From an uncultured archaeon (GTDB lineage Archaea; Halobacteriota; Archaeoglobi; Archaeoglobales; Archaeoglobaceae), in assembly GCA_964596255.1 (NCBI GenBank), contig CAZQTT010000001.1:20327-84326 (forward strand): a DNA stretch of 64,000 bases. The letters are read 5' to 3'. Both the position numbers and the translations under genes were made by a program. Below the pieces are notes generated by a model, which was not told the origin of the DNA, made no database searches, and saw nothing but the letters and a program-made list of their open reading frames with translations. Position 1 is the first letter of the stretch, and each line of letters opens with the position of its first letter. Below, one piece after another: positions 18,932 through 64,000 of the stretch.

Positions 18932-19220
18932 ACTGTAACAACCGTATAAAGCTAATAACCACTACAAAAAAAGGTTTACTCAAAAGCCATTATGAGAATA
19001 TGAAACCAAGATACCCCCAGAGAATTTTTTATGATAGTTTGCAGGCGTTTAAAGTTACATTTATTTGAAATACAAATGTGATTATGGATCCTATTTAATT
19101 CAAACATTTTATACCGGACATTGGGGCAGATGGCGACTGTAGAGTAGTAAAACTAAATCATAATGAGATAATAGCAAACTTAATAATTTCTAATAATTAT
19201 TATCATAAAGGTTAGCAATA

Positions 19221-23294: not shown

Positions 23295-23329
23295 GAAAAG
23301 TATTATAAATCAAATTGTCAGAATCTGAA

Positions 23330-23917
23330 CTACCAGTCTTTTAGAAGTTTTTCTACTTTATCTCTAGTAATTAGCTCTTCCTCAGGCTCTTCATCAATTT
23401 CCTCTTCAAACTGGTTTAAGCTAAGTTCCTTTGAATTGGCGTCTTCTGACCCGCTATCAGTGTCTTTTTCCAGTTTTTTACCGTATTGCTCCATTATTAT
23501 CCCTGCAGCGATTTTGGCGATTCTTTGCTCGTCAATTGGGTTTTGAGTTTTACTTTCCTCTTGTTGTTCTTCTTGCTCCGTCTTATTTTGTTCCCGTTGG
23601 TCTTCGAAGTGTGAGCAGAATAAGCACATGTAGGGGTGTAGGGGTTTTGGCTTTTTACTGGCCTGGACTTTGACATCCCTATTACAATTTTCAACATCAC
23701 TGTATTTGCAGTTGTATAATCTTTCTTTGGCACAGTAATCTGCAATTTTTAAGAAATCATTTGCATTCCCAATTTCATCAATCTGAGGTTTTTTCCGCTT
23801 TAGAAAATACCATTCGAGGAGTAATTCAACTAGCTCTGATGGCTCCTTCTGTGTCTTCTTGCACTTCTCATCTAGAAGTTCTTCAACTTCTGAAGGGACA
23901 TCTACTGTAAGTTTCAT
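23330..23917 (-). CDS. RHH-like N-terminal domain protein with a Cys-rich centre and acidic tail (candidate ParR-like adaptor)
   Basis: KLTVDVPSEVEELLDEKCKK..PSELVELLLEWY fits a ribbon-helix-helix pattern. Cys pattern C-x6-C-x7-C ... C-x2-C, then a Glu/Asp-rich C-terminus. It starts 5 nt after the actin-like gene. Confidence 0.5.
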   Translation of the reverse strand: MKLTVDVPSEVEELLDEKCKKTQKEPSELVELLLEWYFLKRKKPQIDEIGNANDFLKIADYCAKERLYNCKYSDVENCNRDVKVQASKKPKPLHPYMCLFCSHFEDQREQNKTEQEEQQEESKTQNPIDEQRIAKIAAGIIMEQYGKKLEKDTDSGSEDANSKELSLNQFEEEIDEEPEEELITRDKVEKLLKDW

Positions 23918-23921
23918 TTAA

Positions 23922-24947: not shown

Positions 24948-25052
24948 AATAATTATTGTAATTGTAAATTATATAATAATTTCCCTCAGGGTATTAGAGA
25001 TGTGATAATGCGACAAAGGGAAGTACCAAACATAAAAAAGAAAATCCCCTTC

Positions 25053-26384
25053 TTATATCCTGCAGGACTTTGGAGTGTCTAAGGAGTGAATACCCCTCGC
25101 CTTAACCACATTGAGATATCTATGGACCCCTGTTTCATCTTTTTTGAAGCTGAGTTCAATTACTGCCTGAACAAAACTCTCTTCCAGGCCGTTCTTTTCT
25201 GTGTGTTTATCCTTGACAAGCAGAACGGTACTGTCCAGATTCTCAGAATTTATTATCATTTTCCTGGCGATATCCCTGGCCCAGGGATGATTTAAAATCA
25301 GCAGTGTAGTGAAAGTATCTATAACCACTCTATTTGCCCCCACCTTCCTGATGTGCCCGTATAAATCATTCAAAATCCTTTCACAGTATTCTATAGGCGA
25401 AATATCTCCGTGGAACACCTTTTCTTTTAATTCTTCTACCTGGTGGGTCAGATCATACAGGTAGAGCAATTCACGGTCGATATAATCTCTAAGGTTGTAA
25501 TCGAGCATCTCAAAATCTTGAATAAGATGTTCTGGGTTCTGATCCGTTAAGATTAAGAGTGATTTTTCTCCTCTCCTGCAGCCTTCCAGTAAGAACCTTA
25601 TACCAAATGTAGTTTTCCCCGAACCCATATCCCCAGATAAAAGATAAACCCGGTTCTTTATGAGGCCTCCTCCCATAATCCTATCCAGCACAGGGATACC
25701 AGACGGGATGAGGTATTTTCTTTTCTCCAATAACTTATCGACAGCCTGTCTATCAAATATCTCTAATTCTCTACTTTCTGCATATTTTTTAGCTTCCTCA
25801 GATAAATTAGAGAGAGAAACGACCATGTAATCCAGTCCTATGTCATTTTCCTTTCCACAGAACTTTTTCACCTGGTTGGTGTCCACTTCCTTTCCTTCTG
25901 GTATCACATCGATAGCTGTGTCCTTCCCTTCATAGTTTGATGCAAATAAACTAATTGTGTATTTTGTTCCCGATTTCCCCACGACTTCTCCTTTTCTTAC
26001 AATGTTGCTGTATCCCTTACTTACCAGAAAGCTTTCTGCAAGTTCGAGTGACTGGTTCTCAATTTTATTGATGAGGTTTTCACAAACGTTACGGGCCATT
26101 TCAAAAGCATTATTCCACGCTGTATCCTTGTCTACCCCCTTTTTCATCTGTTCTTTTGCTTCTGTCTTTATACCGTGAAAAAGAAGCTCTTTGGTGAATC
26201 CAAACCCGTAGTCATCAATTTTTTCAATATAGTCGATAATCCTGTCTATAATTTCTTCTGATGGAGCATCCGTCTGTTTATTTGTATTCTGACGTATTTC
26301 ATTACCGACTATTGTCATCTCAATTAACTCCTGATTTAGTAACTGAAGGAGAGCCAGTTGTTTATGTGTTAATTTCCTGCACAC
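25053..26384 (-). CDS. Fusion protein: N-terminal region, Mrr-like (restriction endonuclease fold) domain and KaiC/RecA-like ATPase
   Basis: C-terminal domain has IPSGIPVLDRIMGGGL..LLSGDMGSGKTTF (Walker A) and RVVIDTF (Walker B). The middle part (LAESFLVSKGY...YMVVSLSNLSEEAKKYAESRELEIFD) resembles the Mrr catalytic-domain layout. The start could instead be the ATG at 26318, which has AGGAG upstream. Confidence 0.65.
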   Translation of the reverse strand: MCRKLTHKQLALLQLLNQELIEMTIVGNEIRQNTNKQTDAPSEEIIDRIIDYIEKIDDYGFGFTKELLFHGIKTEAKEQMKKGVDKDTAWNNAFEMARNVCENLINKIENQSLELAESFLVSKGYSNIVRKGEVVGKSGTKYTISLFASNYEGKDTAIDVIPEGKEVDTNQVKKFCGKENDIGLDYMVVSLSNLSEEAKKYAESRELEIFDRQAVDKLLEKRKYLIPSGIPVLDRIMGGGLIKNRVYLLSGDMGSGKTTFGIRFLLEGCRRGEKSLLILTDQNPEHLIQDFEMLDYNLRDYIDRELLYLYDLTHQVEELKEKVFHGDISPIEYCERILNDLYGHIRKVGANRVVIDTFTTLLILNHPWARDIARKMIINSENLDSTVLLVKDKHTEKNGLEESFVQAVIELSFKKDETGVHRYLNVVKARGIHSLDTPKSCRI

Positions 26385-26603
26385 CCCTCCAGGTACAGAA
26401 TACCTGTTTTTATTTCTCTCTAAATATTTCTTCTACTGTTTCTTATAAAAAAATTATTAGTAAAATACGATAATACTCATTATCACCAGAAACATGACTT
26501 TGAGACGAGACTGAGCTAATTCTTCATTATGTAGCGAGGGTAGAAGCTTAACGTTGAGTGGTAATAGTATCAATTTTAACCACAGGAAATTTTTTGTAGT
26601 AGT

Positions 26604-28205
26604 TTGATTATGATAATAATAATGAATATGCAAACGGGTACTATTACTGGCCAAAGTGTTCCTAGTCATTATAAAATCATAGAACAACTTTACGGTGAAC
26701 TGGATCACAATATCTTAAACAATAAAGAGCCTCCTGAAAATATAGAGGTCATAGACGATTACTGGGTTGTGCCTGGTTTCTCTAAAATACAGATCTGGAG
26801 AGATTATGTGGATAAATTCGAGTACAATTACGTTCTTATTGAACCGCCAATATCTGAAGAGGAATACTCTCTACTTAACTCTATCTACAATGATATGAGA
26901 CGCTCTCTGGTATTGAATGACTATTCTACAGATGAGAGCACCAAAACTACGGTAATAATGGAGGTTCTGGACGAATTGATAAAGGAATATGCTCTTGAAT
27001 TGGAACCAGAGCTAAAAATGAAAATCCTGTATTATCTATTGAGGAACTTCATAGGGTTTGGTACCATAGATTCCATCCTGAACGATAAGTATGTAGAAGA
27101 TATATCATGCGATGGATATGACATCCCCCTCTACATTTTTCATACCAAGCACGGAGGGATGCGAACAAACGTGAAGCTCAGCAGGAACAGACTCGATTCT
27201 CTGGTAACACTGCTCTGCCAGAAATCAGGTAAATACATCTCTTATGCAAATCCGCTTATAGATGCTTCCCTACCTGACGGAAGCAGACTTCATGCAAGTT
27301 ACGGAGAGGAGATAACTCCCAGAGGAAGTAGTTTTACCATAAGAAAGTTCAAGGAAGACCCTTATACTCCAATCGATTTGATGAATTTCGGCACTCTAAG
27401 TTCTGACATAATCGCTTATTTCTGGTTGCTTATGGAGCACAAAATGAACGTTATGGTTATAGGGGAGACTGCCAGCGGGAAGACCACCACACTAAATGCT
27501 TTAACTATGTTCATTCCTCCCGAATCAAAAATTGTGTCCATAGAAGATACCAGAGAGATTCAACTTAATCACGAAAACTGGATAGCTGAACTAACACGAA
27601 TCGGAATTGAAGGAAGTGGAGAAATCTCAATGTATGACCTGTTGAAGACCACTTTGAGGCAAAGGCCGGATTACATAATTGTGGGTGAGATCAGGGGAGT
27701 GGAAGGGCAAACCCTTTTCCAGGCCATGTCCACAGGCCACTCGTCGCACTCTACGCTACATGCAGGGGATATGAGTCAGCTTATTTACAGATTGGAGAAC
27801 GAGCCTTTAAAGATACCCAGGATCATGATACAGTTTCTTGATGCCGTTGTGGTGCAGAACATGTGGTCCGGAAAAGGTGTGAGGAAAAGGAGAGCCAATC
27901 AGGTGAGCGAGATATTTGGTATTGACCAGACAAATAAGGATTTGCTTTTGAACCCTATTTACAAGTGGAACTCGGCGAAAGACTCGTTTGCAATTCAATC
28001 TCAATCTAAAAAACTGAAGAAGATCTCAGAAGTTACCGGTGAGAGCGTCTCCATAATTCAAGAAGAGAAAAAAAGAAGAAAATTATTCCTGGAAAAAATG
28101 CAGAGAAGAGGTATAAGCAATTATAACGACTTTTCCCATTTCGTTAATATCTATTATAAAGATAGCCAAAAAGCTATGGAGAGGTTAGATGAGGGAACGG
28201 GTTAA
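26604..28205 (+). CDS. FlaI/ArlI-like type IV filament assembly ATPase (type II/IV secretion NTPase family)
   Basis: Walker A VIGETASGKTTTLNAL, Walker B PDYIIVGEIRG and His box GHSSHSTLHA. The start is ambiguous among several TTG/ATG codons at 26604-26631. Confidence 0.9.
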   Translation: MIMIIIMNMQTGTITGQSVPSHYKIIEQLYGELDHNILNNKEPPENIEVIDDYWVVPGFSKIQIWRDYVDKFEYNYVLIEPPISEEEYSLLNSIYNDMRRSLVLNDYSTDESTKTTVIMEVLDELIKEYALELEPELKMKILYYLLRNFIGFGTIDSILNDKYVEDISCDGYDIPLYIFHTKHGGMRTNVKLSRNRLDSLVTLLCQKSGKYISYANPLIDASLPDGSRLHASYGEEITPRGSSFTIRKFKEDPYTPIDLMNFGTLSSDIIAYFWLLMEHKMNVMVIGETASGKTTTLNALTMFIPPESKIVSIEDTREIQLNHENWIAELTRIGIEGSGEISMYDLLKTTLRQRPDYIIVGEIRGVEGQTLFQAMSTGHSSHSTLHAGDMSQLIYRLENEPLKIPRIMIQFLDAVVVQNMWSGKGVRKRRANQVSEIFGIDQTNKDLLLNPIYKWNSAKDSFAIQSQSKKLKKISEVTGESVSIIQEEKKRRKLFLEKMQRRGISNYNDFSHFVNIYYKDSQKAMERLDEGTG

Positions 28206-43324: not shown

Positions 43325-43909
43325 ATGAGGATTGAGATATTAGTTTTGGCTGTTTGTATTTTGTTCCTGGGTCTAACTTCAGTTATGGCAAATCCAACGC
43401 TGGACTGGTCTATTGAAACCATCGATTCTGATAGAAACGTAGGTGGGTTTACTTCAATTGCTCTGGATTCTTCTGGCTATCCTCACATAAGCTATCATAA
43501 CTGGAGTGATGGGTTGAAATATGCTAAGTAGAACGGTACCGGATGGGACATACAGACTGTCGACTCTGATGGAAATGTAGGTTTTACTTCAATTGCTCTG
43601 GAATCCTCCGGTGCTCCTCACATAAGCTATCATAACTATACTAATGGGGGTTTAGGATATGCTAAGTGGACAGGAGCTACATGGGACATACAGACTGTCG
43701 ACTCTGATGGAAATGTAGGTTTTACTTCAATTGCTCTGGATTCTTCTGGCTATCCTCACATAAGCTATCATAACGGTACTACTGGGAGTTTGAAATACGC
43801 AACATTAGCTTCTGCTCCTACTGAAGTACCGAACCTTACGCCAGTAGGACTAATAGCCCTGACGGGCTCACTTGGATTAGTTACTGTGATTATGCTAAGA
43901 AGACGTTAA
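43325..43909 (+). pseudogene. Secreted repeat protein with a VPxxxP-type C-terminal sorting signal, interrupted by an in-frame TAG
   Basis: Signal peptide MRIEILVLAVCILFLGLTSVMA. Three ~46-aa repeats (W.I.T.DSD.NVGFTSIALDSSGYPHISYHN). TAG at 43529-43531 sits where the next repeat has Trp (TGG). The C-terminus is VPNLTP, a TM helix and RRR. Confidence 0.7.
43544..43785. repeat. 138-bp-period tandem repeat inside the secreted repeat gene
   Basis: TGGGACATACAGACTGTCGACTCTGATGGAAATGTAGGTTTTACTTCAATTGCTCTGGA occurs identically at 43544 and 43682. Confidence 0.85.
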
Positions 43910-54664: not shown

Positions 54665-54783
54665 CCGCTCCACAGTCCTGCACAGGTTACAAATAAAGAC
54701 CTGCCACCATGGTATACTTTACTCGCAATTACCAACCATGTACTATCTACCATCATCTACCATAAATTTTAAATACAATATAC

Positions 54784-54815
54784 ACTAACTTTTTGTTAGT
54801 AACTAAAAAGTAACA
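54784..54815. promoter_or_regulatory. Palindromic A/T-spacer element upstream of hsp20 (candidate heat-shock operator)
   Basis: ACTAAC-TTTTT-GTTAGT followed by AACTAAAAAGTAAC. It lies about 65-95 nt upstream of the ATG. Confidence 0.3.
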
Positions 54816-54877
54816 GGTGAACTGGTCAGGATCATATTGAATATTAATCCTGAATAAAAGTGTGGAGGTGATACTTC

Positions 54878-55450
54878 ATGGACTGTAATGATGATAAATG
54901 TAACCCCTGGAAAAGAAAAGACAAAGATAAGTTCGATGAGTTATTCGGTGGAGGCATTGACCTGGACGAGATGGTAAAGAGAATGTTCGGGGATTTCGAT
55001 GAGCTGTTTGGAAGAGAAGGACCGACTGATGGGCAACCTTATATCAAAGGATTCTCCATAAGAATGGGTCCGGAAGGTGAACCAGAAATAAGAGAGTTTG
55101 GAAATACAGGCGGCATATGCGGAACAGGTGGTTTCGAAGGACATAGAGTGCCTGAGGAGCAAGAACAGGAGACTTTGATAGACGTAATGAAGGATGACGA
55201 AGAAGTACACGTGATTGCTGATATGCCAGGTGTCAACAAGGAAGATATTGACGTCAACGCTTCAACAACTTCAGTTAATATCACAGCGGAAGGAGAGAGC
55301 AGAGAATATTCAGAAAATGTGGACTTGGGATGTGAGGTTTATCCCGACTCATCTAAAGCCAGATACAATAACGGAGTCCTGGAAGTTACGTTGAAGAGAA
55401 AAGAGCCACAAGAAGAAGAGAAAGAACAGACTAAAGTTGAAGTGGAGTAA
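54878..55450 (+). CDS. Small heat-shock protein (Hsp20/alpha-crystallin) with an N-terminal extension
   Basis: Alpha-crystallin core DVMKDDEEVHVIADMPGVNKEDIDV...ARYNNGVLEVTLKRK. GGAGGTGAT SD sequence upstream. Confidence 0.85.
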   Translation: MDCNDDKCNPWKRKDKDKFDELFGGGIDLDEMVKRMFGDFDELFGREGPTDGQPYIKGFSIRMGPEGEPEIREFGNTGGICGTGGFEGHRVPEEQEQETLIDVMKDDEEVHVIADMPGVNKEDIDVNASTTSVNITAEGESREYSENVDLGCEVYPDSSKARYNNGVLEVTLKRKEPQEEEKEQTKVEVE

Positions 55451-55579
55451 TCCACTATTACCAGTACCCTTAACATCAGTTACTTCTTTTTTTTCTTTTT
55501 TAATTTGGTTTCAGATTTCAGACCGAAATATATAAAAAGAAAATAGAAAATAGAATAGAGATTTTTTAAAATCAGTTTT

Positions 55580-55837
55580 TCAGGTCTGGTCTCTATTATT
55601 GTATTTTTCCAAGACGGCGTTGAACAGTTTCTCTCTTGCTTCTTTTGATATGGGGTGGAAGATGTCCCTGTAGGTGTCGTTCTTGCGGTCATATCTGCTG
55701 GGCATAGCCACCCAAAGACCATCATTCCCTTCCATAACCTTCAGGCCATGAATAGCGTATTCGTCATCCAAAACTACGTCTGCAAAAGCTTTTTGCTGTC
55801 CAGATCCACCAGATCCACTAAATTCAAATATTCTCAC
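55580..55837 (-). CDS. spoVG: SpoVG-family protein
   Basis: KAFADVVLDDEYAIHGLKVMEGNDGLWVAMPSR...YRDIFHPISKEAREKLFNAVLEKY aligns along its length with bacterial SpoVG as I recall it (..[35 protein letters not shown]..Y). Confidence 0.7.
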   Translation of the reverse strand: MRIFEFSGSGGSGQQKAFADVVLDDEYAIHGLKVMEGNDGLWVAMPSRYDRKNDTYRDIFHPISKEAREKLFNAVLEKYNNRDQT

Positions 55838-55891
55838 ATATTACCATATTTTTTAAAAAATTTTAAATACTATGCTAATTAATATTATATT

Positions 55892-56470
55892 ATGAGGAAA
55901 AAAGGAGGAAAGGAAAAGAGTTTAAAAGCACAGAAGACCAGTGAAGGCAAGTATAAGTATAAGATGGTTGGTGTTTTAACAGAAAACGGAGAGAAAGGAA
56001 TATGGAAGACGGAGGCTGAAAAAGAGGGCGTACCTTTATCGGAGTTTGTGAGAGATGCGGTAAATGCCAGAATAATGGACATAAGACCAGCCAAAGATAC
56101 ATTGACAGATACAGGAGAGTTAGATAGATTAAAGCAGGAAAATCAAAGGCTTGAGAAAGAGAAAAGAGAACTAAGCGAAGAAGTTGAGAAGCTAAAACAG
56201 GAGCTTTCTATTCTCAGGGATGCTTACACCAGCAAAACCGGGGATTGGTTAGATAAGATATTGGCAGTCATTCCAGAGGATGGATACAAGAAGCCACGAG
56301 ACATTTTGATTGATGCTGGATTAATCAAGGAATGGTCAAGTGATGAAGAGTGGTATGAAGCTCAACAGCGATTTCAAGATGAGATTAGAGAGTTTAGTGA
56401 GAAGTGCGAGAAAGAGGGAAAGCCATTCCCGTTAATCTATACGGAGGGTCGAGGATGGAAGCACAAGTAA
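55892..56470 (+). CDS. Hypothetical protein with an RHH-like segment and a coiled coil
   Basis: GVPLSEFVRDAVNARIMD is CopG-like. A leucine-zipper-like stretch ELDRLKQENQRLEKEKRELSEEVEKLKQEL follows. Confidence 0.5.
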   Translation: MRKKGGKEKSLKAQKTSEGKYKYKMVGVLTENGEKGIWKTEAEKEGVPLSEFVRDAVNARIMDIRPAKDTLTDTGELDRLKQENQRLEKEKRELSEEVEKLKQELSILRDAYTSKTGDWLDKILAVIPEDGYKKPRDILIDAGLIKEWSSDEEWYEAQQRFQDEIREFSEKCEKEGKPFPLIYTEGRGWKHK

Positions 56471-57315
56471 TGGTAAAGGATTATATAGATAGATTGGAGG
56501 AAGTAGGGAAGGCAGAAACTACTATTAACACTTACGGGCAAACATTATCAAGTTTCATTAAGTTCCTCGATGGAAAACCTTTGGATGAGGTCAAAGAGCG
56601 AGATATTCGAAGGTTCTTGAAGAAAGATGGTGAGTTAAAGCCGAGAACTAAGAAAAGCTATTGCATACGGATTTTTAGATTTTATGAGTGGGTGATAGAA
56701 GAGGAAGAGTTGAATATTAAGAACCCAGCTAAGAAAATCAGAGAGGAAATTAACGGTAGCAATGGACATGAAGAAGAGAAAGAGGTTCTATCAGTCGAGG
56801 AAGTAAGGAAACTAATCCAGTCAATAGAGAGTCCGAGAAAAAAGGCAATGCTCTTGGTTCTTTATAAATCTGGTATGAGATGTATGGAGTTAAAGAACCT
56901 GGATAAATCTGATGTGGATTTTGACACAGGGAAAATAATAATAAAGCGAAGGAAAGGCGGTAAGAGAGGGTATGTTTTTGTGGACGACGAGGCTCTTAAA
57001 TGGCTTAAGTTTTATCTCTCAACGAGATGGGACGACCATGAAGCATTGTTCACATGCAGTAAGGGAAGGATAACCAGACACAATTTGAGCAAGACAATTA
57101 TAGAAACGTTAAAAAAAGCAGGTTACGAAGGTTTAACGGCTCATGACTGGAGACACATATTCACAACGCACATGAGGCAAGCTGGATGTGACCTTGAAGT
57201 GATTAGAGTATTGAGGGGCGATTCTCCAGGAAACATGACTGAATACTATACGCATTACAGTGAGGAGGACATCAGGACAGAGTATTTGAGATGTGTCCCC
57301 CGCTTATACGTCTGA
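56455..57315 (+). CDS. Tyrosine recombinase/integrase (XerC/D-phage integrase family)
   Basis: SAM-like N-terminal domain. Catalytic residues lie in SGMRCMEL (Arg), HDWRHIF (His-x-x-Arg) and the YYTHY region (Tyr). The start is 56455 or 56470 (TAATG overlap). Confidence 0.85.
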   Translation: MEAQVMVKDYIDRLEEVGKAETTINTYGQTLSSFIKFLDGKPLDEVKERDIRRFLKKDGELKPRTKKSYCIRIFRFYEWVIEEEELNIKNPAKKIREEINGSNGHEEEKEVLSVEEVRKLIQSIESPRKKAMLLVLYKSGMRCMELKNLDKSDVDFDTGKIIIKRRKGGKRGYVFVDDEALKWLKFYLSTRWDDHEALFTCSKGRITRHNLSKTIIETLKKAGYEGLTAHDWRHIFTTHMRQAGCDLEVIRVLRGDSPGNMTEYYTHYSEEDIRTEYLRCVPRLYV

Positions 57316-57483
57316 ACTAAATTTTTTTCTTGCTCCTATTAATATAATTAAATTCACTATCCTGTTTCATTTAGTAGTTATGTAAACTATTATTTTATAG
57401 TAAATCGAGAAAACTATATATTAGCAAATTTATTATTATTATGGGCAAAGGTAAAGCACCTAAGCCCGAAAGAGGTGATAAAA

Positions 57484-57912
57484 ATGGCGGAAGAAAAGAA
57501 CAAGCAGGAAGTAGATGTGTTTGAGGTTGTGGATGGTGTAGAGGATGTTGGAACCCTCAAAGAGCTCCAGCAGTTAATTAATGGCAAGATTGACGAGTTG
57601 AGGAAAGCCAACGCGAAACCCTGGAAGAAGGCATCGTTTAAAATGTTCTGGAACAAAACAAGCGAGGATGTCCAGCGATTAGTGCTTCAATTGGCAGAGA
57701 ATGGTGGTAGTGCTTACAAGGAAGACTTACTCGAAAAAATGGATTGGGAACAGATGAAGTTAACCGGTATGTTGGCTGGTGTCAGTAACAAAGCAAGGAA
57801 CATGGGTTATAAAGACATAGTAACCAGAGAGAACGTCAAGGACGAAGATGGTAACTGGCATGTTCAATATAAACTTGATGAAGACATCCAGAAGTTTATT
57901 AAGGAACTATAA
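57484..57912 (+). CDS. Hypothetical protein
   Basis: ORF with AGAGG 8 nt upstream of the ATG at 57484. No motif recognised. Confidence 0.5.
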   Translation: MAEEKNKQEVDVFEVVDGVEDVGTLKELQQLINGKIDELRKANAKPWKKASFKMFWNKTSEDVQRLVLQLAENGGSAYKEDLLEKMDWEQMKLTGMLAGVSNKARNMGYKDIVTRENVKDEDGNWHVQYKLDEDIQKFIKEL

Positions 57913-57941
57913 GTCCTTTATTTCTTTTTTTGGTGGTTGAG

Positions 57942-58082
57942 ATGGGAAAGTGCTTGTGGTGTGGTAAAGAGACTGATTACGATTGGTGCTGTGAAGAACA
58001 TAGACGCTGTTTAAAGTGTGGCAATAAACTTGAGCCTGAAGACGACATTTACTGTATTCTGTGTTCTATGGGGGTAAAATAA
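57942..58082 (+). CDS. Zinc-ribbon mini-protein (46 aa)
   Basis: Found by hand translation, below the track cutoff. MGKCLWCGKE..CCEEHRRCLKCGNK..YCILC. The stop overlaps the next ATG (TAATG). Confidence 0.55.
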   Translation: MGKCLWCGKETDYDWCCEEHRRCLKCGNKLEPEDDIYCILCSMGVK

Positions 58083-58207
58083 TGTATTGCTGCCAAGAAT
58101 GCGGTTATAGATTTAATACGATTGAAGAAGCCATAGAAGCTTTTCACTCAGATGAGGGTTGTCCAGAGTGCGGGAGCACAGATATTGATTTATGTGAGGA
58201 ACCATGA
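58082..58207 (+). CDS. Zinc-ribbon mini-protein (41 aa)
   Basis: Found by hand translation. MYCCQECGYRF...GCPECGSTD. The stop overlaps the next ATG (ATGA). Confidence 0.55.
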   Translation: MYCCQECGYRFNTIEEAIEAFHSDEGCPECGSTDIDLCEEP

Positions 58208-58317
58208 ATAAAAGACGTTGGATATGCCGGAAGTGTGGTAAAGTAATCTTGAGCTCCGAGAAACCAAACGAACGTTGCAGGAAAGGACATATGTGTGAAT
58301 TTGAACGAGAGTTCTAA
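58204..58317 (+). CDS. Zinc-ribbon mini-protein (37 aa)
   Basis: Found by hand translation. MNKRRWICRKCGK...ERCRKGHMC. Confidence 0.5.
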   Translation: MNKRRWICRKCGKVILSSEKPNERCRKGHMCEFEREF

Positions 58318-58650
58318 ATTTTTTTCTCGAATCGGCGTATACCAAATTTTAAACCGGTATGATAAGTTTCGGTTCAACGATATATTGTTGGTCATCTTTA
58401 TCGTAAATCTTCGATAGGAACCAGCATTACATTGGTGCCTTTTTATGGTGATGAGTCAGCATGGGGGGGTTCGAGGACTCGAAAATGATGAGTGATTAAA
58501 AGAACGATATCCTTCAATAACTCAAAATTTTATTTTGTTTCCTTCGATTAGGAAGTCAAATATAAGCTGTCCTTCAATAACTTATAGGCGACAACCAAAT
58601 ATTTATACTTCTATTAACATAATATTTATAATAATAAAGAGGTTGCTATA

Positions 58651-58845
58651 ATGAAGTGCAAAAAGTGTGGTTACGAATGGCAGAACAGGGTTCCGAATCC
58701 AAAGCAGTGTCCTGCTTGTAAGAATCCACTGAAGAAGTCAAAGAAGCCTAAACCAGATACCAACTGTAAATTCTGTAATCATAAGTGGAAAAAGCGAGTG
58801 AATTCGCCGAAACAATGCCCGAGTTGTCATCGTTATTTGAGATAA
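58651..58845 (+). CDS. Double zinc-ribbon protein (64 aa)
   Basis: Two internal repeats: CKKCGYEWQNRVPNPKQCPACKN and CKFCNHKWKKRVNSPKQCPSCHR. Confidence 0.65.
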   Translation: MKCKKCGYEWQNRVPNPKQCPACKNPLKKSKKPKPDTNCKFCNHKWKKRVNSPKQCPSCHRYLR

Positions 58846-58863
58846 GTATTGGAGATGTAAAAA

Positions 58864-59046
58864 ATGAAGGAATTTAATATAGATATAAGAGAAGGTGAGA
58901 AGCTCATTTACACGATAGAAGTTAAAGTGCATTATAATGACGAAGAGCCCGAGTTTAGTGATGTCTTTGAGAAAATGGCTGAGTTTCTGAACATAGGATT
59001 TCAAGACAACGGTGTACAGCGAGAGTTCAGCATGGAAGTAGCATGA
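58864..59046 (+). CDS. Hypothetical protein (60 aa)
   Basis: ORF tightly packed between neighbours, with a 4-nt overlap with the next gene. Confidence 0.45.
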   Translation: MKEFNIDIREGEKLIYTIEVKVHYNDEEPEFSDVFEKMAEFLNIGFQDNGVQREFSMEVA

Positions 59047-59639
59047 CTTCTGAAGTGCTTGAGCAAATTATTGAGGTTCTTAGAGAAGAGGAACCACTCG
59101 GAAGTCCACAGATAGCGGAGAAGATAGGAGTACCAACGCAATGCGTAGCACAAGTGGTTAGACATGGTAGTGGAGTTCATCAATATAAGGGGATGTATTT
59201 CGCCAGTGAGCGTAACTTGCAAATTTACAAGATAAAGGAGATCCTAAAGAAGGAAGAACCATTGAAAGCTCGTGAGATTGCTGAGAGGCTTGGAAGAGAA
59301 ACTAATTCCGTATCAAAGATAATACGTCACCACGGAGAGGGTATTAAAAGTCGTAAAGGTAAGTATGCTCTCAACCCCGATAAATTGCCGGAGGAAGGCG
59401 ATAAATACGAGTGTCCTTACTGTTATGAGATTGTAGAAGATTTTAGGGGTTTTGTAAAACACATTAATAAGAACCACAACCATGGTACGTGCCCTGTTTG
59501 TGGAAAGAAGTGCAGAGAACTGGAAATACACGCAGTAAAGAAGTCAGAACGCTGTGAGGAACATTATTTGTATTATGGTTTGATTAGTAGAACAGACCAG
59601 GAGGCAAGGCAGTATGCAGAGGAATATTGTCGGTGCTAG
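59043..59639 (+). CDS. Putative DNA-binding protein: two winged-helix-like repeats plus a C2H2/C4 zinc finger
   Basis: Duplicated segment (EEPLGSPQIAEKIGVPTQCVAQVVRHG / EEPLKAREIAERLGRETNSVSKIIRHHG). Then CPYC..H..H and CPVCGKKC. Confidence 0.6.
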   Translation: MTSEVLEQIIEVLREEEPLGSPQIAEKIGVPTQCVAQVVRHGSGVHQYKGMYFASERNLQIYKIKEILKKEEPLKAREIAERLGRETNSVSKIIRHHGEGIKSRKGKYALNPDKLPEEGDKYECPYCYEIVEDFRGFVKHINKNHNHGTCPVCGKKCRELEIHAVKKSERCEEHYLYYGLISRTDQEARQYAEEYCRC

Positions 59640-59646
59640 AAATTAT

Positions 59647-59736
59647 ATGTGCCCATATTGTCGCTATACGTGGCAGGATAGGGCAGAGCCGATGGAATGC
59701 CCCAATTGTGGTGGTAAGTTCAAGAAATCACGATGA
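59647..59736 (+). CDS. Zinc-ribbon mini-protein (29 aa)
   Basis: Found by hand translation. MCPYCRYTWQDRAEPMECPNCGG resembles the repeats of the 64-aa protein. Confidence 0.45.
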   Translation: MCPYCRYTWQDRAEPMECPNCGGKFKKSR

Positions 59737-59990
59737 AAAAACCTCCTATTGCCGGAGCCGGGTTTTTTCACCTCCACCCTTTTTTCCCCGGCAATGATGG
59801 TTGGAGTCCAGATATTCTTTAAATAAAACTTTTTTCTTTATCTGAAAGAAGACTGATATGTTTCTTTTTAATCACTCGTTGAAGGACAGTGAATATTTTG
59901 TTCTGGTGAAAAATTGGTCTCCACTCGACAAAAACCTTCTAATAATCAAACTAACAATTTTATATTAACAGATATAAAGGATGGTGAAAA

Positions 59991-60332
59991 ATGAAGACGA
60001 GAAGTGGTAAATTCGAAAAGAAACTCCAATCAATGCCAGTAGGGAACTATGATTATTACTTCATTCATGTTCCACAAGGTTGGAGGAGAAGATTAGATTT
60101 GGGTCAAGGAAGTCTCGTAGGATTCGATATGAAGGAACGTAAAATCATTGTCAAACCTGAGATAAATAAGAACCTAGAAATCAAGAAATTACAGATGAGG
60201 GGAAATCAGGGATACATTTTTTTGCCAATCAAGTGGTGCAGAGAGAACAATTTGAAGAAAGGAGACATTATGACCACAGAATTTTCGGAGGACTCTGATG
60301 ACTTGATTATTGAGATTGATAAACAGGAGTGA
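59991..60332 (+). CDS. Tandem AbrB/SpoVT-like domain protein
   Basis: Two swapped-hairpin-like halves: YYFIHVPQGWRRRLDLGQGSLVGFD and GYIFLPIKWCRENNLKKGDIMTTEF. Confidence 0.55.
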   Translation: MKTRSGKFEKKLQSMPVGNYDYYFIHVPQGWRRRLDLGQGSLVGFDMKERKIIVKPEINKNLEIKKLQMRGNQGYIFLPIKWCRENNLKKGDIMTTEFSEDSDDLIIEIDKQE

Positions 60333-60337
60333 TTACA

Positions 60338-60739
60338 ATGAGTGAAGTGGAAATTCCAGTGGAAGCCAAAGAATACGTTGAGTACTATGTTGATATCTTG
60401 GTTGAGAGAGGATTCGATAGAGAAGCTATTATGGGAGAAATATACACTATTGCTGAGCATCCAAAAATAAAGGAGTCATTCAGTTCGAGTAAAGGAGCTT
60501 GGGAATACGCGACACGACTTGTCTGGAACAGAAATTTGAGGACCTGTAAGGAGTGTAAATTTGCAGTTCGAAATAGAGAACTTGAGAAGGGAGGAGAGAT
60601 ATACTGCTGGGTTTCACAGACCCAAGAAAATTACTATACTGCGCCTAAGTGCTTTTATTACTTCAATAAAGACAATGTGGATGAGAACACGATTAAAAGA
60701 GCATTATACGAACTGATTAAAGCACGGAGGAAGAGATGA
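60338..60739 (+). CDS. Hypothetical protein with a CxxC...C motif
   Basis: ORF with AGGAG 8 nt upstream of the ATG at 60338. The track start at 60329 is a GTG. Confidence 0.5.
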   Translation: MSEVEIPVEAKEYVEYYVDILVERGFDREAIMGEIYTIAEHPKIKESFSSSKGAWEYATRLVWNRNLRTCKECKFAVRNRELEKGGEIYCWVSQTQENYYTAPKCFYYFNKDNVDENTIKRALYELIKARRKR

Positions 60740-62043
60740 GTGAAGAAGTAGATGACGTTGATAAGTTTATTGATGGAGTAAACGATGATGAAAACCTAGT
60801 TGACGAGATAGAGAACGAGTTAATAGACAAAAAAATATCCAGGAACCGCAAATATGCCAGACTCGCAGCACTCCATTTAGTTGCTGTTTATACTCCAAAT
60901 TTAGTGGTCGTTACTACTTATGGACCTTTAAAAACCAATATCTACGTAATTTACATAGGACCGAGTAGAATTGGAATGAAATCTGTCGTAATAAACTTCA
61001 TAAGAGAATTACTCAAAATGGACGAATATGATAGGAAAATAAAGAAGAGAATACCACCAAGCGGTTCACTTGAGGGAATTACAATGTATATGAACTGGGA
61101 CCATCCAGATGGAACAGCTTTTGGTTCTATGCTTAAGGATGAATGCTCTCTGATGTTCGAGCAATTGAAGAAGACATATTCTTCTGATTTTATGGAGACT
61201 TTCTCATTGATGTATGACGGTCATATAGAGGGTAAAGTCACGAGAAGTTATAAATTAGAAGAAGTAGAAAATTGTCATGTATCCTTTTTTGGAGCCAGCA
61301 CAAAGACTTTTTACCGGAAAATGCCGATTGACTATTTTGACCAGGGGATTGGAAATAGACCCTTCTATTGTTTATGGAACGGAAAGACACCAAAGTTTGA
61401 TAATCCAGAAGAAGCTTTTAGAAGTCGACAGGCGTGGACTAATAGAGTATACGATATTATCAAAAAATTACGAGAATGTGAGAAGTTTACAGAGGCTGGA
61501 ATAGCACATGAAGCTATGGAATTATGGTGGGAGTACCATGAAGAAGAAATGAAGGAAGCAGAGAAACTATATCACAGCAGTGAACCACTAACAGATTATT
61601 ATTCATCATATAGAGGGGGTAATCCTGAGAGAGTTTTAAAGGTGGCAATGCTTAGGAGTGTTGGAGATAACTATAAAAAAGACTTAGATACCATAATTAT
61701 CGAAAAGGAACATATAGAGTACGCTATTAAAGTGGTGAACGAATACTATGAAGAATACAAACAAATGGTGAGAGATTGGATTAAAGTATCTCAAGAGAAA
61801 GTAGAGCCAATAGAGAACATCCAACCAGCAGAAAGTAATGTATTGTCTGCTATAGAGAGGAATGCTGATTCTTTTGGTTGGTCTAAGCGTGGAGACGTTA
61901 TGAGAGTTGTTGGTGGTACAGCAAAGAATTTTGATAACATTATTGAGACGTTGAAAGAGAAAGAATTCATAGTAGAATGTGATGATTCTTACTTTGGTCA
62001 AACAAAACCAGGTCCTAAGACCACATACTACAAGTGTCTCTAA
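60736..62043 (+). CDS. DUF3987-like protein (candidate replication/helicase-type protein of the element)
   Basis: The layout IYIGPSRIGMKSVV...SLEGITMYM...MLKDECSLMF...LMYDGHIEGKVTRS...VSFFGAST...GIGNRPFY resembles the DUF3987 order of motifs. The P-loop-like site is non-canonical. Confidence 0.45.
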   Translation: MSEEVDDVDKFIDGVNDDENLVDEIENELIDKKISRNRKYARLAALHLVAVYTPNLVVVTTYGPLKTNIYVIYIGPSRIGMKSVVINFIRELLKMDEYDRKIKKRIPPSGSLEGITMYMNWDHPDGTAFGSMLKDECSLMFEQLKKTYSSDFMETFSLMYDGHIEGKVTRSYKLEEVENCHVSFFGASTKTFYRKMPIDYFDQGIGNRPFYCLWNGKTPKFDNPEEAFRSRQAWTNRVYDIIKKLRECEKFTEAGIAHEAMELWWEYHEEEMKEAEKLYHSSEPLTDYYSSYRGGNPERVLKVAMLRSVGDNYKKDLDTIIIEKEHIEYAIKVVNEYYEEYKQMVRDWIKVSQEKVEPIENIQPAESNVLSAIERNADSFGWSKRGDVMRVVGGTAKNFDNIIETLKEKEFIVECDDSYFGQTKPGPKTTYYKCL

Positions 62044-63958
62044 TTTTTTTATTTTATGCAAATCTAATTATTGGGGATTCCCAACAATTATCCAATATTT
62101 ATGAAGAAGTATGAGACTTCTATTCCGTAAACCAAGCTCTATAGAACCTTAAACTAATTATTTGTTGGGAAGTCCATACTCAAACCCAACAATTCTTTTC
62201 TACTCTTATTAATTATTTTTATATTATTTATCTAATTATTGGATATATTTTCCAATAACCAACAAACAATTAGAAAAAGGAAGGAGATTTAGTAAATTTC
62301 TTTTTTAAGACAGGACAGAACTTGAGATTGTTGAGAATGTCTTCAATAATTATTACGAAGGATTCATTACTGAGCATCACCGAATTACTCAACGTATTCT
62401 TATTATAATTTTAATCCAATACCTCACCTAATTGTATCTTACGAGAGTTGGTAGCAGACTCCATATAATGAAATCTGTCGTAATAAACTTCATAAGAGAA
62501 TTACTCAAAATGGACGAATATGATAGGAAAATAAAGAAGAGAATACCACCAAGCGGTTCACTTGAGGGAATTACAATGTATATGAACTGGGACCATCCAG
62601 ATGGAACAGCTTTTGGTTCTATGCTTAAGGATGAATGCTCTCTGATGTTCGAGCAATTGAAGAAGACATATTCTTCTGATTTTATGGAGACTTTCTCATT
62701 GATGTATGACGGTCATATAGAGGGTAAAGTCACGAGAAGTTATAAATTAGAAGAAGTAGAAAATTGTCATGTATCCTTTTTTGGAGCCAGCACAAAGACT
62801 TTTTACCGGAAAATGCCGATTGACTATTTTGACCAGGGGATTGGAAATAGACCCTTCTATTGTTTATGGAACGGAAAGACACCAAAGTTTGATAATCCAG
62901 AAGAAGCTTTTAGAAGTCGACAGGCGTGGACTAATAGAGTATACGATATTATCAAAAAATTACGAGAATGTGAGAAGTTTACAGAGGCTGGAATAGCACA
63001 TGAAGCTATGGAATTATGGTGGGAGTACCATGAAGAAGAAATGAAGGAAGCAGAGAAACTATATCACAGCAGTGAACCACTAACAGATTATTATTCATCA
63101 TATAGAGGGGGTAATCCTGAGAGAGTTTTAAAGGTGGCAATGCTTAGGAGTGTTGGAGATAACTATAAAAAAGACTTAGATACCATAATTATCGAAAAGG
63201 AACATATAGAGTACGCTATTAAAGTGGTGAACGAATACTATGAAGAATACAAACAAATGGTGAGAGATTGGATTAAAGTATCTCAAGAGAAAGTAGAGCC
63301 AATAGAGAACATCCAACCAGCAGAAAGTAATGTATTGTCTGCTATAGAGAGGAATGCTGATTCTTTTGGTTGGTCTAAGCGTGGAGACGTTATGAGAGTT
63401 GTTGGTGGTACAGCAAAGAATTTTGATAACATTATTGAGACGTTGAAAGAGAAAGAATTCATAGTAGAATGTGATGATTCTTACTTTGGTCAAACAAAAC
63501 CAGGTCCTAAGACCACATACTACAAGTGTCTCTAATTTTTTTATTTTATGCAAATCTAATTATTGGGGATTCCCAACAATTATCCAATATTTATGAAGAA
63601 GTATGAGACTTCTATTCCGTAAACCAAGCTCTATAGAACCTTAAACTAATTATTTGTTGGGAAGTCCATACTCAAACCCAACAATTCTTTTCTACTCTTA
63701 TTAATTATTTTTATATTATTTATCTAATTATTGGATATATTTTCCAATAACCAACAAACAATTAGAAAAAGGAAGGAGATTTAGTAAATTTCTTTTTTAA
63801 GACAGGACAGAACTTGAGATTGTTGAGAATGTCTTCAATAATTATTACGAAGGATTCATTACTGAGCATCACCGAATTACTCAACGTATTCTTATTATAA
63901 TTTTAATCCAATACCTCACCTAATTGTATCTTACGAGAGTTGGTAGCAGACTCCATAT
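60975..63958. repeat. Perfect tandem direct duplication, 2 x 1,492 bp
   Basis: Copy 1 is 60975-62466 and copy 2 is 62467-63958. Identical ORF translations recur at a +1492 offset (61277/62769 and 61684/63176). The non-coding parts are identical by eye. The trinucleotide AAT is present at the start of copy 1, at the junction and after copy 2. Confidence 0.9.
62467..63535 (+). pseudogene. 5'-truncated duplicate of the DUF3987-like gene
   Basis: Identical to codons about 81-435 of the 60736-62043 gene. The track ORF (62432) gains 12 unrelated N-terminal residues from the upstream non-coding DNA. Confidence 0.7.
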
Positions 63959-64000
63959 AATAATATCTTACCGCATACATCGGATGAGAAAAGCAAAAAA

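What the first reader, a model, noticed from the sequence alone, without database searches (positions are those of the whole stretch)
55838..64000. Lower-GC integrated plasmid- or virus-like element rich in zinc-ribbon mini-proteins
From about 55.6-55.9 kb onward the sequence changes character. My hand counts of single 60-nt lines gave 32-35% GC inside the element, against about 52% in two chromosomal genes. All genes point the same way. They encode a tyrosine integrase and RHH-, AbrB- and winged-helix-type regulators. At least six proteins are built around CxxC zinc ribbons, and there is a DUF3987-like protein that is typically found with primase/helicase functions of mobile elements. No capsid, terminase or conjugation genes are recognisable in the visible 8 kb, so the type (provirus, integrative plasmid or satellite) is open. 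Most ORFs have no recognisable family.
Basis: partly seen in the sequence, partly recalled or inferred. Interest (0 to 1): 0.7.

Follow-up and report, generated by a model that had tools for sequence, protein, structure and literature searches.

The report
Integrated mobile element in an Archaeoglobaceae genome
The last 8 kb of the window is the left part of a foreign DNA element inserted into the start of the host's spoVG gene in an uncultured Archaeoglobaceae archaeon. It carries an integrase, a replication helicase and many tiny zinc-binding proteins, which makes it a new but fairly ordinary member of the archaeal "integrated plasmid or virus" class.

Summary
The finding holds. Five related Archaeoglobaceae genomes are collinear with the window up to position 55837-55839. 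All five stop matching there, inside codon 6/7 of the host spoVG gene. From 55838 on, all genes lie on the + strand:
- an RHH/coiled-coil protein;
- an intact XerA-like tyrosine integrase;
- seven CxxC proteins, with a CxxC density 14 times that of the host genes;
- a 2x wHTH plus Zn-finger protein and an AbrB protein;
- a 435-aa stand-alone DUF3987-type AAA+ helicase. Its structure model has pLDDT 90 and resembles MCM subunits and phage DUF3987 primase-helicases.

One chromosomal stretch reaches 38.1%.

It is absent from an independent assembly of the same population.

The right end lies beyond the window and beyond a further 918 nt that I recovered. The att repeats and the virus-versus-plasmid question therefore stay open. 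No close relatives exist in IMG/VR, JGI metagenomes, GTDB representative genomes, GenBank phages or PLSDB. One distant element family shares two genes with it.

Verdict: a real integrated mobile element, a new member of a known kind, of modest interest.

The parts
55580..55837 (-). Host spoVG, the flank and integration target. It lacks its first 6 codons and its own promoter, and can only start at GTG.
   Evidence: Pfam SpoVG 2e-25. Relatives begin MAEVTDVRIFEF; the window begins (GTG)RIFEF. Similarity to five relatives ends after ...ATTCTCAC.
55838..55891 (+). Left end of the element (attL side). It is AT-rich and replaces the spoVG start and promoter.
   Evidence: Alignment A3. The displaced spoVG 5' end, GTAACTTCAGCCAT, is absent from the window and from L001.
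55892..56470 (+). 192-aa protein: weak RHH N-terminus, a coiled coil and a conserved C-terminal domain. It overlaps the start of the integrase gene. It is a candidate regulator or recombination directionality factor (inferred).
   Evidence: RHH_1 E 0.085, PHROG Arc-like repressor 3e-4, coiled-coil hits. The C-terminal half is 36% identical (E 8e-16) to a 194-aa protein next to the DUF3987 helicase in L017-19.
56455..57315 (+). Intact XerA/XerCD-like tyrosine integrase (286 aa as annotated; the ORF opens at 56404).
   Evidence: Pfam Phage_integrase 1e-29 plus SAM-like N-terminal domains. PHROG integrase 4.5e-45. NCBIfam XerA_Arch 192 bits, below the cut-off of 220. The R, K, HxxR and Y residues are conserved; Asp replaces the usual His before the Tyr.
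57475..57912 (+). 145-aa acidic protein, function unknown.
   Evidence: Only sub-threshold hits: DUF7343 wHTH at E 0.019.
57930..58317 (+). Three overlapping zinc-ribbon mini-ORFs of 50, 48 and 37 aa (57930-58082, 58061-58207, 58204-58317).
   Evidence: CxxC counts of 3, 2 and 1. Zn_ribbon_8 4e-5 and Zn_Ribbon_1 3e-3. The 37-aa ORF appears.
58651..58845 (+). 64-aa double zinc-ribbon protein.
   Evidence: 4 CxxC. DUF4379 treble clef 2e-5, two stretches.
58864..59046 (+). 60-aa protein, unknown; its stop and the next start overlap.
   Evidence: no family found.
59043..59639 (+). 198-aa protein with two wHTH domains and a C-terminal C2H2/CxxC zinc finger; a DNA-binding regulator.
   Evidence: PF0610-like_N 7e-8 (two stretches), zf-Di19 2e-6, HTH_11, TrmB, MarR. 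PHROG DNA-binding protein 3e-7.
59614..59736 (+). 40-aa zinc-ribbon mini-protein.
   Evidence: 2 CxxC; weak hits to many Zn-ribbon families.
59991..60332 (+). 113-aa protein with two SpoVT/AbrB domains.
   Evidence: Pfam MazE_antitoxin 5e-9, two stretches. NCBIfam AbrB 2e-6.
60329..60739 (+). 136-aa protein with one CxxC, translationally coupled to the helicase gene; function unknown.
   Evidence: No family found. The single-sequence AF2 model has pLDDT 60 and is unusable.
60736..62043 (+). 435-aa stand-alone DUF3987-type AAA+ (SF6, MCM-like) helicase with a C-terminal winged helix; the element's replication protein.
   Evidence: 280 homologues, the best at 31% identity. 35 of 40 hit Pfam DUF3987. 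Walker A GPSxxxxK[ST] and Walker B DE are invariant. AF2 pLDDT 90. Foldseek finds MCM at E 6e-8 and phage DUF3987 primase-helicases at E 8e-19.
62044..62466 (.). AT-rich intergenic region with short repeated motifs; a candidate replication origin (weak inference).
   Evidence: 29-34% GC. TCTAATTATTGG x2 and CCCAACAATT x2, plus inverted TTGTTGGG. Both exact motifs occur nowhere else in the window; chance expectation is 0.66 for the first (counted with up to 1 mismatch) and 0.28 for the second.
62467..63958 (+). Second, perfect copy of 60975-62466 (a 1492-bp tandem duplication with an AAT microhomology at the junction). It holds a 5'-truncated helicase ORF and a second copy of the intergenic region.
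   Evidence: The single-copy form is found in Logan contig L001, which is otherwise 100% identical.
63959..64000 (+). The element continues. L001 adds 918 nt beyond the window, holding a 63-aa AbrB-like gene and a minus-strand ORF of at least 133 aa.

Best explanation
This is the left part of a site-specifically integrated mobile genetic element in the chromosome of an uncultured Archaeoglobaceae archaeon. It is more than 7.5 kb long once the duplicate copy is counted only once.

Shown:
- The block is an insertion relative to five related genomes.
- It starts inside the first codons of spoVG.
- It carries an intact tyrosine integrase about 0.6 kb from the junction.
- It carries a DUF3987/MCM-like AAA+ helicase with intact Walker motifs.
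- It carries a set of DNA-binding and zinc-ribbon mini-proteins found nowhere else in the window.

Inferred mechanism:
- The XerA-like integrase recombined an attP next to its own gene with an attB that overlaps the spoVG 5' end. The RHH/coiled-coil protein overlapping the int gene may help or regulate this step.
- After excision, the circular form would replicate from an origin near the helicase gene. The candidate is the AT-rich repeat region at 62044-62466.
- The DUF3987 helicase would unwind the DNA and recruit host primase and polymerase, since no primase is seen in the visible part.
- The RHH, AbrB, wHTH and Zn-ribbon proteins would act as the switch between integrated and replicating states.

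With no virion, packaging or conjugation genes in the visible part, the element fits best the class of 'cryptic integrated elements' (integrative plasmid-like). A provirus whose structural genes lie further right is not excluded.
For: - Collinearity with L005, L006, L007, L020 and L021 stops at 55837-55839. The relatives have an uninterrupted spoVG with its promoter, and four of them also have the 133-145 aa neighbour.
- The junction is present in independent Logan assemblies of two runs, one 100% identical over 1844 nt.
- Integrase domains and catalytic residues are present. The only homologues among 5.8 billion protein clusters are at 84%, 77%, 47% and 29% identity, and none comes from the related genomes.
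- Helicase evidence. DUF3987 has been shown experimentally to be a 5'-3' helicase that replicates a mobile element (PMC11724360), and was predicted to be a mobile-element helicase (PMC5862659).
- Homologues of the helicase sit in virus-like contigs with PolB, RFC and ERCC4, and in small elements.
- A second gene (the C-terminal domain of the 192-aa protein) is shared with the L017-19 elements.
- The element is the lowest-GC 6.6 kb of the window, with strong purine skew and a 14-fold CxxC enrichment.
Against: - The right end, attR and the direct repeats were not seen.
- There is no evidence of an excised or empty-site form in the same population.
- No primase or recognisable initiator was found.
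- The GC drop is modest and nearly matched by a chromosomal stretch at 17.5-24 kb.
- The integrase's best family match is the chromosomal XerA model, although below its cut-off.
- Integration at a gene's 5' end that truncates the gene is unusual for site-specific integrases. It could instead reflect a later deletion.
- The origin assignment rests only on short repeats.
Confidence: 0.78

Rival explanations
1. It is a provirus. The visible 8 kb would be the integration, regulation and replication module of a temperate archaeal virus whose structural genes lie to the right of the window. Candidates are an AvPV1-like pleomorphic virus or a tailed virus.
For: - The only described viruses of Archaeoglobi are integrated pleomorphic viruses of about 18 kb. 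They have the integrase next to one att site and carry RHH, wHTH and Zn-finger genes (PMC10919331).
- The nearest relatives of the helicase include genes in 48-110 kb virus-like contigs.
- The best structural matches are phage proteins.
- Gene orientation flips after the replication module, in the L001 extension. This is common at module borders.
Against: - No virion gene is found in 8 kb plus 0.9 kb.
- tblastn of the helicase against GenBank phage records gives nothing. The integrase gives only matches below 31% identity, chiefly to bacterial phage and chromosomal records.
- There is no relative in IMG/VR.
- AvPV1-type viruses use tRNA genes as targets, and Geoglobus ones use rolling-circle Rep proteins, not DUF3987.
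Confidence: 0.25
2. It is a decayed, no longer mobile remnant (a 'dark-matter island'). An old insertion would have lost its ends through deletion, which would explain the truncated spoVG and the missing 133-aa neighbour.
For: - spoVG has lost 6 codons and its promoter rather than being restored by an att core.
- The locus downstream of spoVG is rearranged differently in every relative. L006 has tRNA-Arg, L007 has tRNA-Phe, and L005 has another recombinase plus Orc1.
- The integrase carries Asp at a normally His/Trp catalytic-pocket position.
Against: - All 13 ORFs are intact and tightly packed, with overlapping stop and start codons.
- The integrase and helicase motifs are intact, and the His-to-Asp change is conserved down to 47% identity. 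That points to selection, not decay.
Confidence: 0.15
3. It is a helper-dependent satellite, PICI- or P4-like. Such small islands hold an integrase, regulators and a primase/helicase, and hijack a helper virus.
For: The order integrase - small regulators - DUF3987 helicase mirrors bacterial satellites and islands, in which DUF3987 and related helicases are typical (own knowledge; PMC5862659).
Against: No archaeal satellite of this type has been described. No capsid-remodelling or packaging gene is seen. The size of the element is unknown.
Confidence: 0.05
4. It is an assembly or binning artefact: a free plasmid or virus contig wrongly joined to a chromosomal contig.
For: The window comes from a metagenome-assembled genome. 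A perfect 1.49-kb tandem duplicate near its end shows that the assembler had trouble here.
Against: Independent single-run assemblies from SRR7048220 and SRR7048218 contain hsp20-spoVG-RHH(-int) on one contig. One is identical to window 54748-56591.
Confidence: 0.02

Closest known systems
Cryptic integrated elements (CIE) of archaea, as defined for Thaumarchaeota (Krupovic et al. 2019, PMC6563490)
   Same: Both have an integrase as the hallmark gene, a mobile-element-type replication protein, RHH/wHTH/Zn-finger small proteins, mostly orphan genes and no virion or conjugation genes. In CIE the replication protein is MCM, a Cch-like AAA+ helicase or a primpol-S3H fusion. CIE range from 2.6 to 98 kb with a median of 17 kb, and some integrate into protein-coding genes.
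   Different: The host lineage is Archaeoglobaceae. The replication protein is a stand-alone DUF3987 helicase. The target is the 5' end of a gene, whereas the thaumarchaeal cases target 3'-distal regions. att sites were not seen here.
AvPV1-like pleomorphic proviruses of Archaeoglobi (PMC10919331)
   Same: Same host class. Both are integrated by a tyrosine integrase that lies next to one att site, and both carry RHH, wHTH and Zn-finger genes.
   Different: No VP4-like fusogen or other morphogenetic gene is seen in the visible part. No sequence similarity to any phage record was detected. The AvPV1 target is a tRNA gene, not spoVG. A DUF3987 helicase was not among the replication genes quoted in the passages I read.
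PriCT-DUF3987 helicase AgaPH and DUF3987 domains of phage/plasmid primase-helicases (PMC11724360, PMC5862659)
   Same: The ATPase fold and the Walker A and B motifs are shared. Like them, it is encoded on an integrase-bearing mobile element and has a presumed replicative role.
   Different: The window protein has no PriCT or primase domain, and no adjacent primase gene is seen. It has a C-terminal winged helix. Its Walker A has one extra residue (GPSxxxxK[ST]). Its sequence is below the Pfam cut-off.
Uncultured elements L017-L019 (ENA ERZ23495238; Logan SRR10312496, SRR10312500)
   Same: They share two genes with the window. One is the DUF3987-like helicase (29% identity, E 1e-40). The other is the C-terminal domain of the 192/194-aa DNA-binding coiled-coil protein (36% identity, E 8e-16). 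Small ORFs, including an RHH-like protein and a Cys-rich protein, lie upstream of the helicase.
   Different: No integrase is visible on those short contigs. The 194-aa gene is divergently oriented and appears to have a wHTH-like rather than an RHH N-terminus (judged by eye, not tested). The other ORFs are not detectably related.

Membership tests
Integrated mobile genetic element (site-specific, tyrosine-recombinase type) | Present in one genome and absent at the same locus in close relatives (occupied versus empty site) | tested here: met
   Five relatives are collinear up to 55837-55839. All five keep an intact spoVG 5' end and promoter, and four also have the 133-145 aa neighbour.
Integrated mobile genetic element (site-specific, tyrosine-recombinase type) | Encodes a tyrosine recombinase with the catalytic R..K..HxxR..[H/W]..Y residues | tested here: met
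   Pfam 1e-29. R, K, H, R and Y align as invariant columns. The [H/W] position is Asp in this clade of four sequences.
Integrated mobile genetic element (site-specific, tyrosine-recombinase type) | Flanked by direct att repeats | not testable with these tools
   The right end lies outside the window and outside the 918-nt L001 extension. The 89,782-bp NCBI contig could not be fetched.
Cryptic integrated element / integrative plasmid (no virion or conjugation genes) | No capsid, packaging, fusogen or conjugation genes anywhere in the element | tested here: inconclusive
   None in the visible 13 ORFs plus the 2 in L001. The rest of the element is unseen.
SSV-type (type I) archaeal integrase elements | The integrase gene is split into int(N) and int(C) by integration, because attP lies inside the gene | tested here: not met
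   The integrase ORF is intact with both domains. The Pfam archaeal Phage_integr_3 model scores only 18.8 bits, below its cut-off of 27.
Chromosomal XerA (dif resolvase) | Scores above the NCBIfam NF040815 equivalog cut-off and is conserved in related genomes | tested here: not met
   192 bits against a cut-off of 220. No orthologue from the L005, L006 or L007 genomes appears among the hits; only four homologues exist in all.
Pfam PF13148 DUF3987 helicases | Matches the family profile; has P-loop Walker A and B motifs; has the DUF3987 fold | tested here: met
   Its own score is 25.9 bits, below the gathering score of 27, so it is borderline. However, 35 of 40 homologues match (best 4e-21). Walker A Ser/Lys and Walker B DE are invariant. 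The top Foldseek BFVD hits are DUF3987 proteins at E 8e-19.
Pleolipovirus-like proviruses of Archaeoglobi (AvPV1 group) | VP4-like fusogen and a pleolipovirus morphogenetic module | tested here: inconclusive
   Absent from the visible part. The remainder is unseen. There is no tblastn similarity to GenBank phage records for the helicase.
Pleolipovirus-like proviruses of Archaeoglobi (AvPV1 group) | Integration into a tRNA gene with an att repeat of about 27 nt | tested here: not met
   The only tRNA in the window is at 1815-1909. The left junction lies in spoVG and contains no tRNA fragment.

The most novel reading that the evidence does not exclude
The element may be the founding member of an undescribed family of Archaeoglobaceae replicons, either a plasmid or a virus. 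Its features would be:
- it replicates with a stand-alone, MCM-like DUF3987 helicase that has a winged-helix tail;
- it integrates into the 5' end of a protein-coding gene (spoVG), replacing the gene's start and promoter with its own AT-rich end, so that host spoVG expression comes under element control;
- the 1492-bp back-junction may reflect a small circular or amplified derivative that contains the origin, rather than an assembly error.
Probability: 0.2. Interest if true: 0.55.

Novelty: new member of a known kind. Interest (0 to 1): 0.32.

Why it matters
Very few mobile elements are known for Archaeoglobi. The literature I found describes only the pleomorphic AvPV1-like viruses, reported in 2024 as the first virus of the class. 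This element adds the following:
- an integrase-plus-helicase element with almost entirely orphan genes;
- a small integrase clade with an unusual Asp in the catalytic pocket;
- a stand-alone DUF3987 helicase family of about 280 clusters. Its members turn up in virus-like contigs that carry archaeal-type replication genes, and in small elements.

It also gives a clean example of integration at the 5' end of a protein-coding gene. None of this overturns current ideas. It is useful as a catalogue entry and as a starting point if the full contig and the reads are examined.

Tried and rejected
Attempts to reach the right end or find close relatives:
- The helicase gave nothing in GTDB representative genomes, IMG/VR or JGI metagenomes.
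- The integrase and the 198-aa protein gave nothing in IMG/VR.
- The integrase in JGI metagenomes gave only generic recombinases of about 30% identity.
- tblastn of the helicase against GenBank phages and PLSDB gave no match. The integrase gave only XerC/D-like hits below 31% identity.
- Exact-protein look-ups returned only short Logan contigs. The 89,782-bp NCBI contig is not retrievable.

Search for attR through the expected right-hand neighbour, the 133-145 aa gene:
- Its homologues come from other populations or from unretrievable contigs.
- The displaced spoVG 5' end is not in the window or in L001.

Other dead ends:
- A profile of the helicase family against PDB sequences matched only the winged-helix tail weakly.
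- An alignment-based locus search failed because no stretch was conserved enough.
- PADLOC found no defence-system match.
- The bacterial promoter and terminator scan was no better than shuffles (28 against 25.6; 3 against 4.5) and does not apply to archaea.
- Rfam found only the tRNA.
- The single-sequence AF2 model of the 136-aa protein had pLDDT 60, so no fold search was run.
- I suspected that the 136-aa protein and the 63-aa Cys-rich protein upstream of the L017 helicase are homologous. BLASTP does not support this (E 0.24).
- The SRA study could not be traced in the literature.

Full report

- *Composition.* The unique part of the block (55838-62466) has 37.6% GC. The two neighbouring chromosomal genes, AOR and HflX, have 48.6% and 46.0%. 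The 37-55 kb flank has 45.8%, and positions 1-55500 have 42.9%.
- *Limits of the GC signal.* No 6.6-kb stretch of the host part is as low as the element. One comes close, at 38.1% starting at 17.5 kb, and it holds ordinary chromosomal genes: a TPR giant protein, KaiC-like and MreB-like proteins, and a PilB/T2SSF locus. GC alone would therefore not carry the claim.
- *Orientation.* All ORFs of the block lie on the + strand, which is 60% purine there against 51% in the host part.

**Boundary and empty-site test.**

- *Host.* The host is an uncultured Archaeoglobaceae archaeon. Its HflX is 95% identical to that of MAG contig CAZHOR010000013 (L005) and 90% identical to two Archaeoglobaceae MAGs (L006, L007).
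- *Collinearity.* blastn collinearity between the window and L005, L006, L007 and two Logan contigs of further relatives (L020, L021) runs through AOR-hflX-hsp20-spoVG. It stops at window 55837-55839 in all five.
- *Where the break lies.* In the multiple alignment, every relative continues from ...ATTCTCAC with ATC/GTC-AGTAACTTCAGCCAT, which is the first six codons of spoVG (MAEVTD). A conserved promoter region follows. The window continues instead with unrelated AT-rich DNA.
- *Neighbouring genes.* In four relatives the next gene is a conserved 133-145 aa ORF. In the window it is the integrase block. spoVG itself is therefore chromosomal, not part of the element. It has lost its start and promoter and can only begin at a GTG.
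- *Not a mis-join.* Logan assemblies of single runs SRR7048220 (L002, 100% identical to window 54748-56591) and SRR7048218 (L004) carry hsp20, spoVG and the first element gene on one contig; L002 also reaches the start of the integrase gene.

**Gene content**.

- *192-aa protein.* It has a weak RHH N-terminus, a coiled coil and a C-terminal domain, and it overlaps the integrase start.
- *Integrase.* It is an intact tyrosine recombinase with SAM-like N-terminal domains.
  - Its best family match is archaeal XerA, but below the equivalog cut-off (192 against 220 bits).
  - Among 5.8 billion protein clusters it has only four homologues (84%, 77%, 47% and 29% identity), and none comes from the related MAGs. 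It is therefore not the host's conserved XerA.
  - The catalytic R, K, HxxR and Y residues are present. The usual His/Trp before the Tyr is Asp in the four closest sequences.
- *Middle of the block.* In order: a 145-aa orphan; three overlapping Zn-ribbon mini-ORFs (50, 48 and 37 aa); a 64-aa double Zn ribbon; a 60-aa orphan; a 198-aa protein with two wHTH domains and a Zn finger; a 40-aa Zn ribbon; a two-domain AbrB protein; and a 136-aa orphan with one CxxC.
- *CxxC density.* It is 8.3 per 1000 aa against 0.59 in 33 host ORFs, so the zinc-ribbon richness is real.
- *What is absent.* Nothing resembles a capsid, terminase, fusogen or conjugation protein. Nothing matches PADLOC defence models.

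**The helicase.** The last gene (60736-62043, 435 aa) scores 25.9 bits on Pfam DUF3987, whose cut-off is 27.

- *Homologues.* An exhaustive HMMER search finds 280 homologous clusters, the best at 31% identity. They are nearly all stand-alone proteins of 400-470 aa. 35 of the 40 best match DUF3987, down to 4e-21.
- *Motifs.* The alignment shows an invariant Walker A-like GPSxxxxK[ST] (GPSRIGMKS in the window), a Walker B DE pair and a conserved GNR.
- *Structure.* The AlphaFold model is confident (pLDDT 90). In the PDB it resembles MCM subunits, AAA+ core plus winged helix (E 6e-8). Among viral models it resembles DUF3987 proteins and primase-helicases of tailed phages (E 8e-19).
- *Literature.* A PriCT-DUF3987 protein of an integrase-bearing bacterial element has been shown to be a 5'-3' helicase. 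It works with the element's primase-polymerase and is classed in superfamily 6 (PMC11724360). DUF3987 had earlier been predicted to be a mobile-element helicase (PMC5862659).
- *Genomic contexts of homologues.* These are 48-110 kb virus-like contigs with PolB (with an intein), an RFC-like clamp loader, an ERCC4 nuclease and methyltransferases, and small elements (L017-19).
- *A related element family.* The L017-19 elements also share the C-terminal domain of the 192-aa protein (36% identity, E 8e-16). The window element thus has a distant relative family with at least two genes in common.
- *No primase.* No primase is visible in the window.

**Mechanism.**

- *Shown:* the insertion polymorphism; the intact integrase next to the left end; the intact helicase; the dense set of DNA-binding and Zn proteins.
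- *Inferred:* integrase-mediated recombination between an attP near the int gene and an attB overlapping the spoVG 5' end; replication of the excised circle driven by the DUF3987 helicase with host primase and polymerase; control by the RHH, AbrB, wHTH and Zn proteins.
- *Candidate origin.* The AT-rich region downstream of the helicase (62044-62466) carries TCTAATTATTGG twice and CCCAACAATT twice, with an inverted TTGTTGGG. As exact copies, these motifs are found nowhere else in the window. This makes it a candidate origin, but the evidence is thin.
- *Effect on spoVG.* The element's AT-rich end places TATA-like sequence about 12-30 nt upstream of the GTG of the truncated spoVG. It might now drive that gene; this is read from the sequence only and is untested.

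**What could not be settled.**

- *Right end.* It is outside the window. The NCBI contig is 89,782 bp long but could not be fetched. Logan contig L001 adds 918 nt, holding a 63-aa AbrB-like gene and a minus-strand ORF of at least 133 aa with no family.
- *Consequence.* attR, the att core, the element's size and the presence of virion genes remain unknown.
- *Best fit.* The 'cryptic integrated elements' defined for Thaumarchaeota. These have an integrase plus diverse replication proteins and mostly orphan genes, with a median size of 17 kb (PMC6563490).
- *Main rival.* A provirus. The only described Archaeoglobi viruses are integrated pleomorphic viruses with similar accessory gene types, but they have tRNA targets and a VP4-like fusogen (PMC10919331).
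- *Unusual target.* Integration into the 5' end of a gene is unusual. The thaumarchaeal protein-gene targets are 3'-distal.

**Tandem duplication.**

- Positions 60975-62466 are repeated perfectly at 62467-63958, with an AAT microhomology at the junction.
- The second copy starts inside the Walker A codons. It therefore encodes a truncated helicase, and it repeats the candidate origin.
- L001 was assembled independently from SRR7048220 and is otherwise 100% identical. It has a single copy and runs straight through both branch points.
- Three readings remain: an assembler loop artefact, a subpopulation with a real duplication, or a 1.49-kb circular derivative. Only read mapping can tell them apart.

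**Verdict.** It is a new member of a known kind. Its sequences are orphan-rich and rare in public data, but its architecture is conventional. Interest is modest.

Noticed in passing
window 60975-62466 and 62467-63958: A perfect 1492-bp tandem duplication with a 3-nt (AAT) junction microhomology. It covers five-sixths of the helicase gene plus the downstream AT-rich region. An independent Logan assembly of SRR7048220 (L001), otherwise 100% identical, has a single copy. It could be an artefact, real heterogeneity or a small circular derivative.
   Followed up: partly
window 55580-55880 (- strand): Host spoVG has lost its first six codons (MAEVTD) and its conserved promoter to the insertion, and can only start at GTG. 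The element's AT-rich end supplies TATA-like sequence about 12-30 nt upstream, which might now drive the gene.
   Followed up: partly
window 57220-57250 (integrase residues about 246-252 of P0160): The integrase and its three closest homologues (down to 47% identity) have 'RGD' where XerC/D-type recombinases have 'LGH'. An Asp thus replaces the conserved His/Trp of the catalytic pocket, and this is conserved within the small clade.
   Followed up: partly
L005 12459-16543; L006 12004-12075; L007 13359-13432: The locus downstream of spoVG differs in every relative. L005 has the 145-aa gene, then a 390-aa tyrosine recombinase with a C-terminal zinc ribbon, then Orc1/Cdc6 and RadA. L006 has tRNA-Arg directly upstream of spoVG. 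L007 has tRNA-Phe 0.5 kb past the 133-aa gene. This looks like a rearrangement or integration hotspot, possibly near a replication origin.
   Followed up: partly
L017 4401-7294 (also L018, L019): An uncultured element shares two genes with the window element. One is the DUF3987-like helicase. The other is the C-terminal domain of a 194-aa coiled-coil protein, which here appears to have a wHTH-like rather than an RHH N-terminus (by eye). Small ORFs, including an RHH-like protein and a Cys-rich protein, lie directly upstream of the helicase.
   Followed up: partly
L012, L013-L016: Homologues of the helicase lie in 48-110 kb single-orientation contigs. These carry PolB (with an intein), an RFC-like clamp loader, an ERCC4/HhH nuclease, methyltransferases and glycosyltransferases. 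They are probably large archaeal viruses and do not appear to have been characterised.
   Followed up: no
window 17500-31000: A second low-GC stretch (38-39%) that is chromosomal. It holds a 1357-aa all-TPR protein, two KaiC-like ATPases, an MreB/actin-like protein, a PilB-type ATPase with a T2SSF membrane protein (type IV pilus or archaellum-like locus) and a Big_1-domain protein.
   Followed up: partly
window 1815-1909: tRNA-Thr(UGU) is 95 nt long, which is longer than a standard tRNA and probably means an intron. It is the only RNA gene that Rfam and ARAGORN find in the 64 kb.
   Followed up: no
window 43422-43797 and 7756-7802: A 138-nt tandem repeat (2.7 copies, 82% matches) lies in a stretch without long ORFs. 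A perfect TTGTGGG x 6.7 microsatellite lies at the second site.
   Followed up: no
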